Of a stretch of DNA of 35,861 nucleotides, positions 42 to 33,912 are shown in pieces (the stretch's first letter is position 1; each line of letters begins with the position of its first letter). The notes under the pieces were generated by a model that was given only the letters and a program-made list of their open reading frames with translations, made no database searches and was not told the origin of the DNA. Position numbers and translations under genes: made by a program. Source of the stretch: a virus. The stretch lies in the IMG/VR virus record IMGVR_UViG_3300045988_152094; one strand, given 5' to 3'.

Positions 42-284
42 TCAGCGGCTCCTCCTTGGGCGAAAGGTGCGCCAGGCGCTCAGGACGAGCGTCGAGACCA
101 GGACGAGCGTCGAGACCAGGGTGCCGAGGGCGAAGACCCTGGTAACAGGGGTTGGTGCGGACGCCAGCATGAGGATCGCGGTGCAGAGTGCGAGGCCGAG
201 CACCCAACCGGCTAGGCTGGATCCCAGGACGAAGCGGCCACTCTGGTCGATGATCTCGCGGTCGAGGTTGTTGTTGCTTTCCAT
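42..284 (-). CDS. small two-TM membrane protein (80 aa), function unknown
   Basis: Two hydrophobic helices (FVLGSSLAGWVLGLALCTAILMLA; VFALGTLVSTLVLVSTLVLSAW) and a basic C-tail. It has its own promoter, and the ATG lies 6 nt after a TATGGT box. It is the last gene of the minus arm. Confidence 0.6.
   Translation of the reverse strand: MESNNNLDREIIDQSGRFVLGSSLAGWVLGLALCTAILMLASAPTPVTRVFALGTLVSTLVLVSTLVLSAWRTFRPRRSR
81..120. repeat. 18-bp in-frame tandem duplication (2.2 copies of caggacgagcgtcgagac) inside the membrane protein gene
   Basis: Read directly. It encodes a duplicated LVSTLV segment within the second TM helix. Confidence 0.9.
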
Positions 285-290
285 GGCTCA

Positions 291-320
291 ACCATATGCA
301 AGAGCACGGCGGACGCACAA
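291..320 (-). promoter_or_regulatory. early-type promoter: -35 TTGTGC (315-320), 18-nt spacer, -10 TATGGT (291-296), ATG at 284
   Basis: Minus-strand read: acTTGTGCgtccgccgtgctcttgcaTATGGTtgagccATG. There is no SD. The -35 lies in a hairpin loop. Confidence 0.6.
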
Positions 321-343
321 GTTCTGTGGCCGCCGTGCTCTTG
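299..343 (-). terminator. stem-loop after the metallophosphoesterase gene; 14-bp perfect stem, 17-nt loop
   Basis: CAAGAGCACGGCGG (299-312) pairs with CCGCCGTGCTCTTG (330-343). It begins 10 nt downstream of the stop at 353. Confidence 0.6.
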
Positions 344-352
344 TGATGCTCG

Positions 353-1510
353 TCACCAGAGGCGCCAAGCCAGCGCGTCGCCGTCCTTCACCTCGAAGCT
401 CAGGACGCTAGAAGCTGTTGAGTCGCCAGAGATGTTGGTCCACCAGTCCGACCCGCGATCGGCCGACGGGCAGGAGATCACCCACCGGCCGTCTCCGACC
501 TGACTCACACCGAAGTTGTGCCAGTGGCCGTGGACCAGCACGTGGGCACGCTCTAAGCCGCTCCTGCGGCCGAACGCCTGGCCCCTGAACCAATCCCCCA
601 CCTTGCTCTGCCGACCCGCCAGATGGCCGTGCGTGAAGCCCACAGAGGTGTCTCCGACGTCCACGGTCACGGACTCCTCGTGGGGCAGCGGTCGCGCGAA
701 CTCGACGTGCTCAAACCCTGGTCGCCCCGCAACGACGTCCTCGACGTTCTCCGAGATCATCAGCCCGAAGTCGTCGAACGGAGCGTTGGCCTGCTTGCCC
801 TTGCCCAGGCCGGTTCGGACCTGGCAGTGGTTGGACGGGACGGCGACGTAGACGAGCCGGTTGCAGAACGGTGCAAGCTCAGCCACCGCCTCAGCGAGGA
901 TTCGCTGAGCAACCCTGATCTGGGTGGTGAGGGCGATGTCGTTCGTCTGGGCCTGACTGTTGACGTTCCAGAACCCTTCGGTGACGTCACCGACGTCGGC
1001 CAGCACGAGGGTGGACAGACCACCCTCCTGGATCGTTGCCTTGAACGACTGCACGGCGCTGCGAACGCGAGCGACCGTCTCGGCTGTTCCGCCCCGGGAG
1101 CCGACCTTGCCGATCTGGAGATCAGCCAGGCAAAGCACAGCGTGCTTCTCGGAAGCGAGCAGGTCACGCCCCCACACCTCGGACTCGTGGCCGAACACGG
1201 GCAGCAGGTCGTCGTAGGACAGGCGCTTGGCCTCGGCCATCTCGACGGCGCCAGGCTTCCACGTGATCTTCTCGTAGGAGCCATCAGGTAGGCGGATCGT
1301 CTTCCCGCGCTGCACGATGGCGTCGACAGGGACATCATTGAAGAACGCGTCGTGCCCCTGATTGGGGGCACCACGGCGCTTCAGCTTGGCGCGGTGGCGG
1401 CGCACCGACGACTCGGAGGTGCTGAACTCGTCCGCGATCTCCTGGTTGGTCCGCTGCTGCTCGCGGGGCAGCAGGTCGTTGGCGATGATTGCCTCATCGA
1501 GCGGAGTCAC
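353..1510 (-). CDS. HTH domain fused to a calcineurin-like metallophosphoesterase (385 aa)
   Basis: N-terminal HTH (QEIADEFSTSESSVRRHRAKLKRRG). MPE motifs LADVGDVTEG, VPSNHC, FTHGH and VHGHWHN. GTG start in a GTGA overlap with the upstream stop. Confidence 0.75.
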   Translation of the reverse strand: MTPLDEAIIANDLLPREQQRTNQEIADEFSTSESSVRRHRAKLKRRGAPNQGHDAFFNDVPVDAIVQRGKTIRLPDGSYEKITWKPGAVEMAEAKRLSYDDLLPVFGHESEVWGRDLLASEKHAVLCLADLQIGKVGSRGGTAETVARVRSAVQSFKATIQEGGLSTLVLADVGDVTEGFWNVNSQAQTNDIALTTQIRVAQRILAEAVAELAPFCNRLVYVAVPSNHCQVRTGLGKGKQANAPFDDFGLMISENVEDVVAGRPGFEHVEFARPLPHEESVTVDVGDTSVGFTHGHLAGRQSKVGDWFRGQAFGRRSGLERAHVLVHGHWHNFGVSQVGDGRWVISCPSADRGSDWWTNISGDSTASSVLSFEVKDGDALAWRLW

Positions 1511-1773
1511 CGGGCGACCTCGGCGATCTTCCTCAACTCCGCCGGGCGGTAGCCGCTCAGCGTACGGACCAGAGCGCCTGACTCGTCACGCACCTCGACG
1601 ATGGGTGCCGAGGTCAAGCCGAGCGCCCGGGCGTTGCTTAGGGCTCGCTCGACCTCAGGGCCTCCATCGCTGAGCGGGCGGCCGACGTAAGCGGCGCCGA
1701 GCTTGTCGAGCATCCGCATGGTGAGTCTGCAGGGCTGGCAGTTTGGCTGGTGAAAAACGGTGATGTGCTGCAT
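1507..1773 (-). CDS. nrdH: NrdH-like glutaredoxin/thioredoxin-fold redoxin (88 aa)
   Basis: MQHITVFHQPNCQPCRLTMRMLD carries a CxxC motif in an NrdH-like context. The 265-aa ORF-track call is an upstream extension overlapping gene 1880..2341. Confidence 0.8.
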   Translation of the reverse strand: MQHITVFHQPNCQPCRLTMRMLDKLGAAYVGRPLSDGGPEVERALSNARALGLTSAPIVEVRDESGALVRTLSGYRPAELRKIAEVAR

Positions 1774-1879
1774 GTCTTCTGAGGTTAGTCGTTGATCTGG
1801 TCGATGATGGCTCGGTAGACCCCAAGCGCTCCCCGCGGGAGGAGGGGGCTGCCACGTCTGCTGCACAGTGACAAGACTT

Positions 1880-2341
1880 TCACTCCCGCACCCCTGCAAT
1901 CTTGCAGATTCCGCGTACAAGCTTGGTGGTCGCATCTGACAGGCGGGTGTGGAACCGAGCCACCCCGATTTCGTGCCCGTGGTCGAAGACGATGATGGAG
2001 TTACGAGCGCGGTCATACTCAAGGGCCACCTCGCGGCTGATCGCTTCGGCCCCGCAGTCCCCGGCGGGGCCGCCCACCACTTCGATGATGCGGGACCGCA
2101 GACTACCGGGCAGCAGTCCCGCATCAGCCAGGGCGAGGACTTCGCCGATCGACCACTCCGAGCGCCGTGCGAGGCGCTCAGACATGTTGCCGACTTTGGC
2201 TCCGAGGGGGGCGGAGATGCTCTGCATGTCCCGCTGGTAGTACCGGCCTCGGCGGCCGGCAATATCCTCCAAGTGGTCGCAAATTTCTGTGGTAGCGAGA
2301 CCATCCTGCTCGACGGAATACGAGCTAAGGCAGCGTTTCAC
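1880..2341 (-). CDS. hypothetical protein (153 aa)
   Basis: GTG start in a GTGA overlap with the stop of 2338..2679. GC-rich third codon positions. No domain recognised. Confidence 0.55.
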   Translation of the reverse strand: MKRCLSSYSVEQDGLATTEICDHLEDIAGRRGRYYQRDMQSISAPLGAKVGNMSERLARRSEWSIGEVLALADAGLLPGSLRSRIIEVVGGPAGDCGAEAISREVALEYDRARNSIIVFDHGHEIGVARFHTRLSDATTKLVRGICKIAGVRE

Positions 2342-2679
2342 TGGGCCATCACCTCAGCGAAATCGGCGTCGAACCACTCCGCCGCACGGTTAACAAACCC
2401 CCGCATCTCCGACTCCGTGGGCCGGATATTCCCGGTCTCCGTCCGGCTCCTGCCGTCGGCCATGTCCGCAGCGCGCAGTCTCCATGCGCCGGAGCGATCC
2501 ACGTATGCCGACCGTGTCCGGAGTGAGCCGTGCTTCCGTGTATCGAGAAAGGCGCGAACACTAATAGGAGTGCGGCGAATATCTTTCACCCGAGGATATA
2601 GCTCCTCTGCCAGCATCTCGTACATCTCTTCTTCAAACGACATTCTCACCGGGATGCCGTTGATCACTTTGGTCCTCAT
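2338..2679 (-). CDS. hypothetical protein with possible ribbon-helix-helix N-terminus (113 aa)
   Basis: Strong SD (gcAGGAGGcgcataATG). The N-terminus IPVRMSFEEEMYEMLAEEL has a beta-strand-then-helix pattern. The 5' part has lower GC than its neighbours. Confidence 0.65.
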   Translation of the reverse strand: MRTKVINGIPVRMSFEEEMYEMLAEELYPRVKDIRRTPISVRAFLDTRKHGSLRTRSAYVDRSGAWRLRAADMADGRSRTETGNIRPTESEMRGFVNRAAEWFDADFAEVMAQ

Positions 2680-33409: not shown

Positions 33410-33422
33410 CCCCGGGGTCGCA

Positions 33423-33428
33423 TAGACT
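33423..33428 (+). promoter_or_regulatory. late-type box TAGACT upstream of the holin gene (leadered)
   Basis: caTAGACTggtccacggcccacaaggctgAAAGGAGaaaaccATG. Confidence 0.3.
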
Positions 33429-33462
33429 GGTCCACGGCCCACAAGGCTGAAAGGAGAAAACC

Positions 33463-33669
33463 ATGGCAGGAAAGCACTCATCCGGCAAGTTCACCTTCAC
33501 TGCTGAGCAGCGCAAGGCCGCCTACGGCGTCATCGCCGCCGTCTTCACCCTGGCTGTCGCCTACGGCGTCATCACGGCGGAGAACGCGGACGCAGTCATT
33601 CGCGCCCTGGAGCAGCTGGCCCCGGTCGCCATTGCACTGTTCGCTCGCCACCACGTCGAGGTCGAGTGA
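33463..33669 (+). CDS. holin-like small membrane protein (68 aa)
   Basis: SD AAAGGAG. TM segment AAYGVIAAVFTLAVAYGVI plus a second hydrophobic stretch LAPVAIALFA. Lies within the lysis block. Confidence 0.6.
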   Translation: MAGKHSSGKFTFTAEQRKAAYGVIAAVFTLAVAYGVITAENADAVIRALEQLAPVAIALFARHHVEVE

Positions 33670-33711
33670 GTCCTTGGTAGGATGGGCCTTGCCCCTTGGG
33701 GCATGGGTTGG

Positions 33712-33756
33712 GTAGCGAAGAGCCTCCACTGCTTAGCGGTGGAGGCTCTTCGCTAC
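33712..33756 (+). terminator. 18-bp perfect stem-loop after the holin gene
   Basis: GTAGCGAAGAGCCTCCAC (33712-33729), loop tgcttagcg, GTGGAGGCTCTTCGCTAC (33739-33756). The right arm overlaps a TACTAT box. Confidence 0.7.
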
Positions 33757-33759
33757 TAT
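33754..33759 (+). promoter_or_regulatory. -10-like box TACTAT, 6 nt before the ATG at 33766
   Basis: cgcTACTATgggggtATG. Confidence 0.3.
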
Positions 33760-33765
33760 GGGGGT

Positions 33766-33912
33766 ATGAACGACCAGCCCAAGATTGACGCCTCTGACAT
33801 CATCAACCGCATCGCCGCCGAGCTGTCCGCGATGACCGCACGTGCGGTGCTGGCAGAGTCCCAGCTCGCTGCGCTCCAGGCCGCCCAGGCCGAGGACGGC
33901 GCTGAGTCCTAA
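33766..33912 (+). CDS. hypothetical small helical protein (48 aa)
   Basis: MNDQPKIDASDIINRIAAELSAMTARAVLAESQLAALQAAQAEDGAES. TAATG overlap with the fibre gene. The longer ORF-track start would read through the terminator hairpin. Confidence 0.4.
   Translation: MNDQPKIDASDIINRIAAELSAMTARAVLAESQLAALQAAQAEDGAES

What the first reader, a model, noticed from the sequence alone, without database searches (positions are those of the whole stretch)
284..33768. Thirteen SD-less genes have a TAnnnT box exactly 6-7 nt before the ATG (leaderless-type starts)
Every gene start that is neither overlap-coupled to an upstream stop nor preceded by a purine-rich SD has a -10-like hexamer at a fixed offset.

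Minus strand:
- TATGGTtgagccATG (284)
- TATTCTgtagccATG (4702)
- TATATTtgagccATG (6159)
- TATGCTtgggcacATG (8027)
- TATGCTcgaccacATG (8404)

Plus strand:
- TACGCTggagccATG (13906)
- TAGCCTgagcctATG (15211)
- TAGGATtgacccATG (16955)
- TAGGCTtagaccATG (19097)
- TAGACTgagcatATG (21819)
- TAGACTgggtccATG (27432)
- TAACATgggcatATG (31427)
- TACTATgggggtATG (33766)

The other starts are either SD-led (2679, 5810, 10931, 13422, 14722, 19808, 21177, 21416, 23458, 24068, 24803, 30419, 33463) or coupled through ATGA/GTGA/TGATG overlaps. A and T are rare in this genome, so TAnnnT at one fixed offset should occur at well under 1 start in 64 by chance. Even the spacer is conserved (roughly tGAGCC).

The simplest reading is transcription starting at the A of the ATG, giving leaderless mRNAs as known in Actinobacteria. 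The alternatives are an RNA-processing site or a translation-linked start-associated sequence.
Basis: partly seen in the sequence, partly recalled or inferred. Interest (0 to 1): 0.8.

Follow-up and report, generated by a model that had tools for sequence, protein, structure and literature searches.

The report
Leaderless gene starts in an actinophage
About a third of the genes of this uncultured Actinomyces-type phage have a promoter -10 box (TAnnnT) exactly 6-7 bases before their ATG, the known actinobacterial signature of leaderless mRNAs; the pattern is real and conserved, but it is a known mechanism used here at unusually high density.

Summary
All 13 TAnnnT-N6/7-ATG sites exist. The window holds 17 such sites against 3.5±2.0 in shuffles, with a sharp peak at spacing 6-7. 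Among 40 gene starts, every TAnnnT within 25 nt upstream sits at spacing 6 (11 starts) or 7 (2).

In related IMG/VR phages (70-97% nt identity), T1, A2, T6 and the distance to the ATG are kept while the inner bases and spacer drift. A non-genic control site is not conserved.

The 13 starts have weak SD pairing (median -2.7 vs -9.4 kcal/mol) and all have a pyrimidine at -1. The same hexamers also occur 20-45 nt upstream of SD-led genes. In two relatives the m01 promoter drives a leadered version of the gene. The box is therefore tied to a transcription start, not to the start codon.

There are two classes. Early promoters are TTGnnn-17/18-TA[T/C]nnT. Late ones are -10-only, "gTAGnCTgg", placed before individual structural genes.

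The host is probably Actinomycetaceae. This is the known "TA-led" leaderless architecture, and Thermus phages show a parallel two-class programme. What is unusual is the density: 13 of about 40 genes, against 2-3 of about 70 in three cultured actinophages. Several early promoters also sit inside covarying terminator-like hairpins. No transcript 5' ends have been mapped.

The parts
282..320 (-). Early promoter and leaderless start of m01 (80 aa): -35 TTGTGC 320-315, -10 TATGGT 296-291, ATG 284-282
   Evidence: Conserved in 14 distinct relatives. In L123 and L108 the same promoter carries a 28-nt leader.
4700..4738 (-). Early promoter and leaderless start of the PolA gene: -35 TTGCGG 4738-4733, -10 TATTCT 4714-4709, ATG 4702-4700
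   Evidence: L033 has an SD-led variant at the same ATG.
6157..6195 (-). Early promoter and leaderless start of m09 (HTH, 76 aa): TTGACC-18-TATATT-6-ATG
   Evidence: L017 has TAGGAT at the same position.
8025..8063 (-). Early promoter and leaderless start of m11: TTGACA-17-TATGCT-7-ATG
   Evidence: Caveat: an in-frame ATG inside the hexamer, with GGGGAG 9 nt upstream, cannot be excluded as an alternative start.
8402..8441 (-). Early promoter and leaderless start of m12 (57 aa): TTGACA-18-TATGCT-7-ATG
   Evidence: In L004 the alternative upstream ATG is followed by an in-frame TAG, which supports 8404 as the start.
13870..13908 (+). Promoter and leaderless start of the HNH gene: TTGTGA-18-TACGCT-6-ATG
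   Evidence: The upstream in-frame GTG is not conserved in relatives.
15199..15213 (+). Late -10-only box TAGCCT-6-ATG in front of TerL. The TAG is also the TerS stop codon.
   Evidence: Relatives have TAACCT and variable spacers.
16943..16957 (+). Late box TAGGAT-6-ATG in front of p04 (66 aa)
   Evidence: kept in L017.
19085..19099 (+). Late box TAGGCT-6-ATG in front of the prohead protease gene
   Evidence: Orthologues carry TAGGAT or TAGCCT.
21807..21821 (+). Late box TAGACT-6-ATG in front of the head-tail adaptor gene
   Evidence: L017 keeps TAGACT with an unrelated upstream sequence.
27420..27434 (+). Late box TAGACT-6-ATG in front of p18, the gene after the tape-measure gene
   Evidence: A 1-nt indel lies between the upstream stop codon and the box, while the box-to-ATG distance stays fixed.
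31415..31429 (+). Late box TAACAT-6-ATG in front of p21 (GDSL/CBM, 660 aa)
   Evidence: L117 has TACCAT-6 and L033 has TAGACT-7.
33754..33768 (+). Box TACTAT-6-ATG in front of p23 (48 aa), abutting a hairpin
   Evidence: Relatives have TAGTAT, TAATAT, TACGAT or TAGGCT, at spacing 6 or 7.
2716..2745 (-). Leadered early promoter TTGACT-18-TATGAT, about 30 nt before the SD-led gene at 2679
10975..11013 (-). Early promoter TTGACA-17-TACGCT-7-ATG. The ATG opens a 16-codon ORF that ends just inside the SD-led gene starting at 10931.
13457..13486 (-). Leadered promoter TTGACC-18-TACCGT in front of the primase gene (ATG 13422, SD GGAGG)
21112..21141 (+). Leadered promoter TTGACA-18-TAATGT between the capsid gene and the gene at 21177
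23401..23406 (+). Late-type box TAGACT about 50 nt before the SD-led major tail protein gene. It overlaps the coding end of p13.
30387..30392 (+). Box TACGCT 26 nt before the SD-led amidase gene
33423..33428 (+). Late-type box TAGACT 34 nt before the SD-led holin gene. It is kept next to a different upstream gene in relatives.
4714..4764 (-). Covarying sense-strand hairpin that encloses the -35 of the PolA promoter and ends at the -10 box
   Evidence: 21 pairs, 5 with compensatory double changes, none broken in the 16-bp main stem.
8419..8456 (-). Covarying hairpin enclosing the -35 of the m12 promoter
   Evidence: 16 pairs, 3 compensatory, with G-U pairs on the sense strand.
8041..8078 (-). 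Hairpin enclosing the -35 of the m11 promoter
299..345 (-). Hairpin enclosing the -35 of the m01 promoter
   Evidence: 19 pairs, 2 compensatory.
33711..33757 (+). Terminator-like hairpin after the holin gene, abutting the p23 -10 box
   Evidence: 18 pairs, 5 compensatory, with U-G pairs on the sense strand.

Best explanation
The TAnnnT boxes are -10 elements of sigma-70-family (host SigA/HrdB-type) promoters. They are placed so that RNA polymerase starts at the A of the ATG. The resulting mRNAs have no 5' UTR and no Shine-Dalgarno sequence, and ribosomes would initiate directly on the 5'-terminal AUG, as is common in Actinobacteria.

Two classes exist:
- Early/replication genes and the HNH gene use full promoters: TTGnnn, a 17-18 bp spacer, then TA[T/C]nnT.
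- Seven late genes use -10-only boxes of the type 'gTAGnCTgg', placed a few bases after the preceding gene's stop codon. These are the genes for TerL, p04, prohead protease, head-tail adaptor, p18, p21 and p23. They would act as internal promoters within the late gene block.

Shown by computation: the motif, its position, its enrichment, its conservation pattern, the absence of SD, and its independence from the start codon.

Inferred: that transcription actually starts at the A, that these mRNAs are translated as leaderless mRNAs, and which RNA polymerase holoenzyme reads the late class.
For: - Enrichment and a sharp offset peak.
- T1/A2/T6 and the spacing are conserved while N3-5 and the spacer drift in relatives at 70-97% nt identity. 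The most diverged full genome (L017+L033) still has 14 sites at k=6-7.
- A non-genic control site, +24769, is not conserved.
- A -35 TTGnnn lies at 17-18 bp for six of the leaderless sites and for the leadered promoters at 2721, 10990, 13462, 14553 and 21136.
- 13 of 13 sites have a pyrimidine at -1 and A at +1, against 15 of 27 for the other starts. The hypergeometric P of about 0.003 is my arithmetic on those counts.
- SD pairing has a median of -2.7 vs -9.4 kcal/mol, p=2e-5.
- The same promoter is used with a 28-nt SD-containing leader in L123 and L108, and the box is replaced by an SD in front of PolA in L033.
- Non-triplet indels upstream of the ATGs, with conserved N-termini downstream, confirm the start codons.
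- Host phylum: TerL is 46-49% identical to Curtobacterium, Arthrobacter, Mycobacterium and Gordonia phages. The endolysin is 50-70% identical to sequences in Actinomyces genomes.
- Literature: TANNNT with its first T about 12 nt before the translation start is the published signature of leaderless genes, which make up more than 20% of genes in Actinobacteria (PMC3160421). TANNNT without a -35 consensus dominates M. tuberculosis promoters (PMC3898074).
Against: - No 5'-end data exist for this phage.
- The seven late boxes lack a -35 or extended -10. They sit 5-20 nt after an upstream stop codon, where termination-reinitiation could also explain the lack of an SD.
- Three late boxes overlap an upstream stop codon or coding end (15199, 21807, 23401), so part of their conservation could be coding constraint.
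- Promoters in front of so many structural genes are unusual for siphophage late operons.
- At 8027 an in-frame ATG inside the hexamer, with a GGGGAG 9 nt upstream, is an alternative start.
- More distant relatives (TerL about 53%, PolA about 40%) show no enrichment.
- No phage-encoded sigma or WhiB-like factor was found that could explain the late class.
Confidence: 0.75

Rival explanations
1. The early boxes are promoters, but the seven late boxes are not. The late genes would be read from one long late transcript. The SD-less ATGs would be translated by 70S or 30S reinitiation after the nearby upstream stop codon. The A/T-containing hexamer would be a translation-linked element that keeps the start region unstructured, or a 'start-associated sequence'.
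For: - All late boxes lie 5-20 nt downstream of, or overlapping, the preceding stop codon.
- They have no -35.
- Conserved start-associated motifs of unknown role are documented in actinophages of Clusters K and EF (PMC7302621).
Against: - Only T1, A2 and T6 are constrained, which is the -10 reading pattern and not a general A/T preference. The distance is fixed to the ATG, not to the stop codon, as the 1-nt indel at 27432 shows.
- The same TAGACT and TACGCT boxes occur 26-50 nt from SD-led starts and are conserved there. The box at 33423 is kept next to a different upstream gene.
- SAS motifs are 13-bp sequences that sit at the RBS position and pair with the 16S rRNA 3' end. These boxes do not.
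- The box at 31427 sits in a 117-nt intergenic gap, far from any stop codon.
Confidence: 0.12
2. The hexamers next to hairpins are mainly the T-rich tails of intrinsic terminators for the upstream genes, and their position before the ATG is incidental. This would apply to 284, 4702, 8027, 8404 and 33766.
For: GC-rich, covarying sense-strand hairpins end exactly at these hexamers and follow the upstream stop codon.
Against: - The tails are poor U-tracts. The consensus terminator scan did not call them.
- A TTGACA-like -35 lies in the hairpin loop at exactly 17-18 bp.
- Eight boxes have no adjoining hairpin.
- The two roles are not mutually exclusive.
Confidence: 0.05
3. The motif marks an endoribonuclease processing site that trims a polycistronic RNA to give a 5'-AUG.
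For: None directly.
Against: - The motif lies 6-12 nt upstream of the presumed end and matches sigma-70 -10 geometry.
- It is accompanied by a -35 in six cases.
- It also occurs at leadered positions.
Confidence: 0.04
4. It is a chance pattern, or an artefact of the reader choosing start codons to fit the motif.
For: Several starts (4702, 8027, 8404, 13906, 33766) are not the longest-ORF starts.
Against: - The annotation-free whole-window count is 17 vs 3.5±2.0, with a peak only at k=6-7.
- The chosen starts are confirmed by orthologue N-termini, by non-coding indels, and by a stop codon in L004.
Confidence: 0.01

Closest known systems
TA-led (leaderless) genes of Actinobacteria and Deinococcus-Thermus: TANNNT with its first T about 12 nt before the start codon (Zheng et al. 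2011, PMC3160421; Cortes et al. 2013, PMC3898074)
   Same: Same hexamer (only T1, A2 and T6 informative in high-GC genomes), same offset, no SD, AUG at +1, pyrimidine at -1, and often no -35.
   Different: Here it occurs in an uncultured phage genome and at about 32% of genes. The late-class boxes sit inside a structural-gene block. No TSS mapping exists.
Thermus phages phiYS40 and Lalka27a: mostly leaderless transcripts, with early/middle promoters of sigma-A type (TTGACA + TAxxxT) and late promoters carrying a distinct TAGGGT -10 element (bioRxiv 10.64898/2026.04.20.719267; PMC3594737)
   Same: - A two-class promoter programme in which both classes keep TANNNT.
- The early class has a -35. 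The late class has TAG at positions 1-3 and no -35.
[quoted passage not shown]
   Different: - Different host phylum (Actinomycetota vs Deinococcota) and unrelated phages.
- I found no conserved upstream base comparable to the C at -25 of Lalka27a.
- The Thermus cases have experimental 5' ends and this one has none.
Predicted leaderless SigA-like promoters in mycobacteriophages, for example Cluster O PL1, PR2 and PL2 (PMC4351075), and leaderless-type starts in cultured actinophages
   Same: [quoted passage not shown]
   Different: Those phages have a few such promoters. In three comparators I counted 2-3 annotated starts of 66-73 genes with the signature (Elener, Shambre1, Gudmit), against 13 of about 40 here.
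Start-associated sequences (SAS/ESAS) of Cluster K mycobacteriophages and Cluster EF Microbacterium phages (PMC3203893; PMC7302621)
   Same: A repeated motif at a short, fixed distance upstream of many start codons in an actinophage, with an upstream extension.
   Different: An SAS is a 13-bp, highly conserved sequence at the RBS position that is complementary to the 16S rRNA 3' end. The boxes here conserve only 3 of 6 bases, do not pair with the anti-SD sequence, and fit -10 geometry.

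Membership tests
TA-led / leaderless genes (sigma-70 -10 box adjacent to the ORF) | TANNNT with its first T about 12 nt upstream of the translation start | tested here: met
   11 sites have the first T at -12 and 2 at -13. No other TANNNT lies within 25 nt of any of the 40 starts.
TA-led / leaderless genes (sigma-70 -10 box adjacent to the ORF) | Signal exceeds dinucleotide-shuffled controls | tested here: met
   17 sites vs 3.5±2.0, max 10. The peak is confined to k=6-7.
TA-led / leaderless genes (sigma-70 -10 box adjacent to the ORF) | No functional Shine-Dalgarno sequence upstream | tested here: met
   Median duplex energy is -2.7 vs -9.4 kcal/mol, p=2e-5. Two sites have a GGAG(G) at a non-functional distance or inside a hairpin.
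TA-led / leaderless genes (sigma-70 -10 box adjacent to the ORF) | Purine +1 that is the first base of an AUG or GUG, with a pyrimidine at -1 | tested here: met
   13 of 13 are ATG and 13 of 13 have C or T at -1.
TA-led / leaderless genes (sigma-70 -10 box adjacent to the ORF) | Primary transcript 5' end at the start codon | not testable with these tools
   Needs dRNA-seq, Cappable-seq or 5' RACE in infected cells.
TA-led / leaderless genes (sigma-70 -10 box adjacent to the ORF) | Host from a lineage that uses leaderless mRNAs widely | tested here: met
   The nearest TerL matches are actinophages. Endolysin relatives occur in Actinomyces and Buchananella genomes. This is an inference from homology, not a demonstrated host.
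Full sigma-70/SigA promoter (-35 and -10) | TTGnnn 16-18 bp upstream of the -10 box | tested here: met
   Met for 284, 4702, 6159, 8027, 8404 and 13906, and for the leadered promoters at 2721, 10990, 13462, 14553 and 21136. Not met for the seven late leaderless sites.
Start-associated sequences (SAS/ESAS) | A 13-bp highly conserved motif at the RBS position, complementary to the 16S rRNA 3' end | tested here: not met
   Only three positions are conserved and anti-SD pairing is weak. The definition is taken from PMC7302621.
Thermus-phage-type late promoters (distinct -10, phage-modified RNAP) | A late-class -10 consensus distinct from the early class | tested here: met
   Position 3 is G in 10 of 14 plus-strand boxes and in 0 of 9 early boxes. 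A -35 is present in 2 of 14 vs 9 of 9.
Thermus-phage-type late promoters (distinct -10, phage-modified RNAP) | A phage-encoded factor that changes RNAP specificity, and late timing of these transcripts | tested here: inconclusive
   Pfam and PHROGs scans found no sigma, WhiB or known RNAP-binding protein, but many small early proteins have no match. Timing cannot be tested with these tools.

The most novel reading that the evidence does not exclude
This Actinomyces phage family runs a largely leaderless, two-class transcription programme like that of Thermus phages.

- Early genes are packaged as insulated cassettes. A covarying terminator hairpin carries the -35 of the next promoter in its loop, its 3' arm serves as the promoter spacer, its T-rich tail is the -10 box, and the next gene's ATG is the +1.
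- The structural genes carry a dedicated late class of -10-only 'gTAGnCTgg' promoters in front of individual genes. These would be read by host RNA polymerase that an as-yet unidentified phage factor has re-targeted.
Probability: 0.3. Interest if true: 0.6.

Novelty: new member of a known kind. Interest (0 to 1): 0.4.

Why it matters
- **Annotation.** It fixes the true start codons of 13 genes in an uncultured phage family that is common in human, probably oral, metagenomes. Gene callers that look for an SD would mis-call these starts.
- **Promoter map.** It gives a near-complete predicted promoter map of about 22 sites in two classes. That makes early and late regulation directly testable.
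- **Breadth of the strategy.** It suggests that heavy reliance on leaderless mRNAs, known from Thermus phages, also occurs in an actinophage lineage. The density is roughly 7-10 times that of three cultured actinophages.
- **Compact regulatory module.** The terminator-embedded promoter cassettes would be a very small insulating module of about 65 nt. They could be of use in synthetic biology for high-GC Gram-positive bacteria.

Tried and rejected
- Megablast of the window against INPHARED phages found no relatives.
- A genome-contig scan with the capsid protein found nothing.
- tRNA and Rfam scans found nothing.
- Pfam and PHROGs scans of the small early proteins found no sigma, WhiB or RNAP-binding factor that could explain the late class.
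- Site +24769 (TACGAT-7-ATG) was rejected as chance. It lies inside gene p16 and relatives read CACGAT or CCTCGAT there.
- Site -26769 was rejected because it is antisense inside the tape-measure gene.
- I looked for an upstream late-class motif, such as the C at -25 of Lalka27a. None is seen. The recurring GTGA upstream of the boxes is simply the preceding genes' TGA stop codons.
- A common operator as the explanation for the inverted repeats was rejected. The arms differ between sites within one genome, and G-U pairs point to an RNA structure.
- More distant relatives (TerL about 53%, PolA about 40%) show no k=6-7 peak, so the trait could not be traced beyond this family.
- TANNNT is depleted overall (128 vs 178±12). 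This is suggestive of selection against spurious promoters, but it is confounded by codon bias, so I did not use it as evidence.
- The phiYS40 primary paper (PMC1885378) is not held. That phage is cited only through secondary sources.

Full report
**What the window is.** The window is 35.9 kb at 66.8% GC and looks like a nearly complete siphophage genome.
- A minus-strand replication block occupies positions 1 to about 13.5 kb. It encodes family-A DNA polymerase, DUF3310, an Enc34-type SSB, an SNF2 helicase, a DUF2800 nuclease and a VapE-type primase.
- A plus-strand block begins at 13.9 kb. It encodes HNH, TerS, TerL, portal, protease, capsid, connector and tail genes, tape measure, amidase, a GDSL/CBM protein and a holin.
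- It has no nucleotide relative among cultured phages. IMG/VR holds a family of about 36-kb relatives, many with HMP-style sample numbers (7000000xxx), which I take to be human samples.
- TerL is 46-49% identical to Curtobacterium, Arthrobacter, Mycobacterium, Gordonia and Nocardia phages.
- The endolysin is 50-70% identical to sequences in Actinomyces genomes and 45% identical to one in Buchananella.
- The host is therefore very probably a member of the Actinomycetaceae. This is an inference from homology.

**Check of the observation.** All 13 sites are present exactly as listed.
- Without any gene annotation, TANNNT-N6-7-ATG occurs 17 times on the two strands, against 3.5±2.0 (max 10) in 300 dinucleotide shuffles.
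- Scanning every spacing from 0 to 20 gives 12 sites at 6 nt, 5 at 7 nt and 0-4 elsewhere. There is no peak for GTG or TTG.
- TANNNT is rare, with 128 copies on both strands.
- For 40 gene starts, TANNNT within 45 nt upstream is found at spacing 6 (11 starts), at spacing 7 (2 starts), at no other spacing below 26, and six times at 26-41. P is about 1e-18 even against the local background.

**Check of the start codons.**
- The N-termini downstream of the chosen ATGs are conserved.
- The sequence upstream carries non-triplet indels and compensatory hairpin changes.
- The in-frame GTG before 13906 is not conserved.
- In L004 the ATG before 8404 runs into an in-frame TAG.
- One caveat remains. At 8027, an in-frame ATG inside the hexamer with a GGGGAG 9 nt upstream cannot be excluded.

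**Comparative footprint.** The relatives are 70-97% identical around these sites.
- In every one of the 13 alignments, T1, A2, T6 and the 6-7 nt distance to the ATG are kept while the inner three bases and the spacer change. At 33766 the box reads TACTAT, TAGTAT, TAATAT, TACGAT or TAGGCT. At 19097 it reads TAGGCT, TAGGAT or TAGCCT. At 15211 it reads TAGCCT or TAACCT, with seven different spacers.
- At 27432, a 1-nt indel lies between the upstream stop codon and the box, but the box-to-ATG distance stays fixed.
- The internal control +24769, a motif match inside a gene, is not conserved.
- The most diverged complete relative (L017+L033; TerL 93%, PolA 85%) still has 14 sites at spacing 6-7. These include the orthologous ones and two new ones with TTGACA at 17 bp.

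**Promoter element or translation-linked signal?** Four results favour a promoter.
1. Six of the 13 sites (284, 4702, 6159, 8027, 8404, 13906) have TTGnnn at 17-18 bp.
2. The same hexamers occur with leaders in front of SD-led genes and are conserved there. These are -2721, -10990, -13462, +14553, +21136, +23401, +30387 and +33423. The box at 33423 is kept next to a different upstream gene in relatives.
3. In L123 and L108, the m01 promoter is intact in hexamer, TGAGCC spacer and +1 A. However, ATG is replaced by ATC, followed by a 28-nt leader with a GAAAGGA SD and then the orthologous protein. Conversely, L033 has GTAGGAGCACCC-ATG, an SD with no box, at the same PolA start.
4. The 13 starts have weak anti-SD pairing (median -2.7 vs -9.4 kcal/mol, p=2e-5). 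All have a pyrimidine at -1, against 15 of 27 for the other starts.

This geometry matches mapped actinobacterial promoters. In M. tuberculosis, TANNNT lies 7-12 bp upstream of the TSS, there is no -35 consensus, purine starts are preferred and pyrimidines flank the start (PMC3898074). It also matches the published in-silico criterion for leaderless genes, in which the first T of TANNNT lies about 12 nt before the translation start and more than 20% of actinobacterial genes qualify (PMC3160421).

**Two promoter classes.** The nine boxes of the replication side and the HNH gene read CTTGac-N17/18-caTA[T/C]gcT. The plus-strand boxes read gTAGnCTgg and lack a -35. Position 3 is G in 10 of 14 plus-strand boxes and in 0 of 9 early boxes. 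A -35 is present in 2 of 14 vs 9 of 9. The late boxes sit a few bases after the preceding stop codon, in front of the genes for TerL, p04, protease, head-tail adaptor, p18, p21 and p23. Leadered late-type boxes precede the major tail protein, amidase and holin genes.

The closest precedent is in Thermus phages. In Lalka27a all promoters contain TANNNT, the early and middle ones match sigma-A with TTGACA, the late ones have a distinct TAGGGT element, and most transcripts are leaderless, as in phiYS40. Predicted leaderless SigA-like promoters are also reported in Cluster O mycobacteriophages. I found no conserved upstream base in the late class and no candidate phage transcription factor.

**How unusual is it?** The mechanism is known. 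The density is not typical. In three cultured actinophages with the nearest TerL (Elener, Shambre1, Gudmit), only 2-3 annotated starts of 66-73 genes carry the signature, against 13 of about 40 here. More distant metagenomic relatives show no peak.

**Additional finding: hairpin cassettes.** Five of the early or left-end promoters and the one at 33766 are fused to long GC-rich hairpins on the sense strand.
- In the minus-strand cases, the 5' arm follows the upstream stop codon, the apical loop carries the -35, the 3' arm is the 17-18 bp spacer, and the stem ends at the -10 box.
- The stems covary in relatives. At 4702, 5 of 21 pairs show compensatory double changes and none is broken in the main stem. 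At 8404 the figure is 3 of 16, at 33766 it is 5 of 18, and at 284 it is 2 of 19.
- G-U pairs occur on the sense strand, where the antisense strand would have C-A mismatches. The arms also differ between sites in one genome. An RNA structure on read-through transcripts, meaning a terminator or a 3' stabiliser, is therefore more likely than an operator.
- The tails are poor U-tracts and the consensus terminator scan did not call them. Terminator function remains an inference.

**Verdict.** It is firmer for the six sites with a -35 than for the seven -10-only late sites. For the late sites, reinitiation on a polycistronic RNA remains a minority alternative. I file it as a new member of a known kind. 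It has two features worth an experiment: the high leaderless density with distinct early and late box classes, and the terminator-embedded promoters.

Noticed in passing
window 299-345, 4714-4764, 8041-8078, 8419-8456 (minus strand); about 13844-13892 and 33711-33757 (plus strand): These are GC-rich sense-strand hairpins fused to promoters. The -35 lies in the loop, the 3' arm forms the spacer, and the stem ends at the -10 box. Compensatory base changes and sense-strand G-U pairs in relatives suggest terminator/promoter cassettes of about 65 nt.
   Followed up: partly
window 10926-11013 (minus strand): A TTGACA-17-TACGCT-7-ATG promoter opens a leaderless 16-codon ORF. Its stop codon lies just inside the SD-led gene that starts at 10931. 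The start is ATG or GTG in the four closer relatives, so this may be a leaderless upstream ORF coupled to that gene.
   Followed up: partly
window 31310-31426 (plus strand): The intergenic insert between the amidase gene and p21 has a conserved TAGCCT-6/7-ATG, a 12-codon ORF and a 9-bp hairpin (TGTCTGTAT...ATACAGACA). A second strong hairpin lies further on. The insert is absent or replaced in L117, L121 and L109. It may be a small RNA or a mobile insert.
   Followed up: partly
window 33678-33757 (plus strand): A conserved late-type box (TAGGAT; TAGACT in L033) sits directly after the holin stop codon. It is followed by a small hairpin and then the large one, which could give a short transcript or an attenuator before p23.
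   Followed up: no
window 13520-13800: An A+T-rich stretch lies between the divergent primase and HNH promoters. It contains TATAAT, a run of AGAGAGAGAG and several overlapping TAnnnT boxes. It may hold the origin or the packaging site.
   Followed up: no
window 1507-2341 (minus strand): Third-position GC shows two consecutive genes in different frames. One starts at the GTG at 2341 and overlaps the upstream stop codon (GTGA). The other is a thioredoxin/glutaredoxin-domain gene that begins near 1800-1880. The long ORF from the ATG at 2304 is probably not a real start.
   Followed up: partly
window 35827-35861 (cut by the window end): A 16-bp perfect GC-rich hairpin lies at the right edge of the window and is followed on the minus strand by CTTCATTTAT. 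It may be a bidirectional terminator at the end of the plus-strand block.
   Followed up: no
L033 (PolA start), and L123 and L108 (m01 orthologue): Orthologous genes switch between leaderless (box-6-ATG) and SD-led or leadered forms within this phage family. This is direct evidence of evolutionary interconversion of the two initiation modes.
   Followed up: yes
whole window: TANNNT is depleted on both strands: 128 observed vs 178±12 in dinucleotide shuffles. This is consistent with selection against spurious -10 boxes but is confounded by codon bias.
   Followed up: partly
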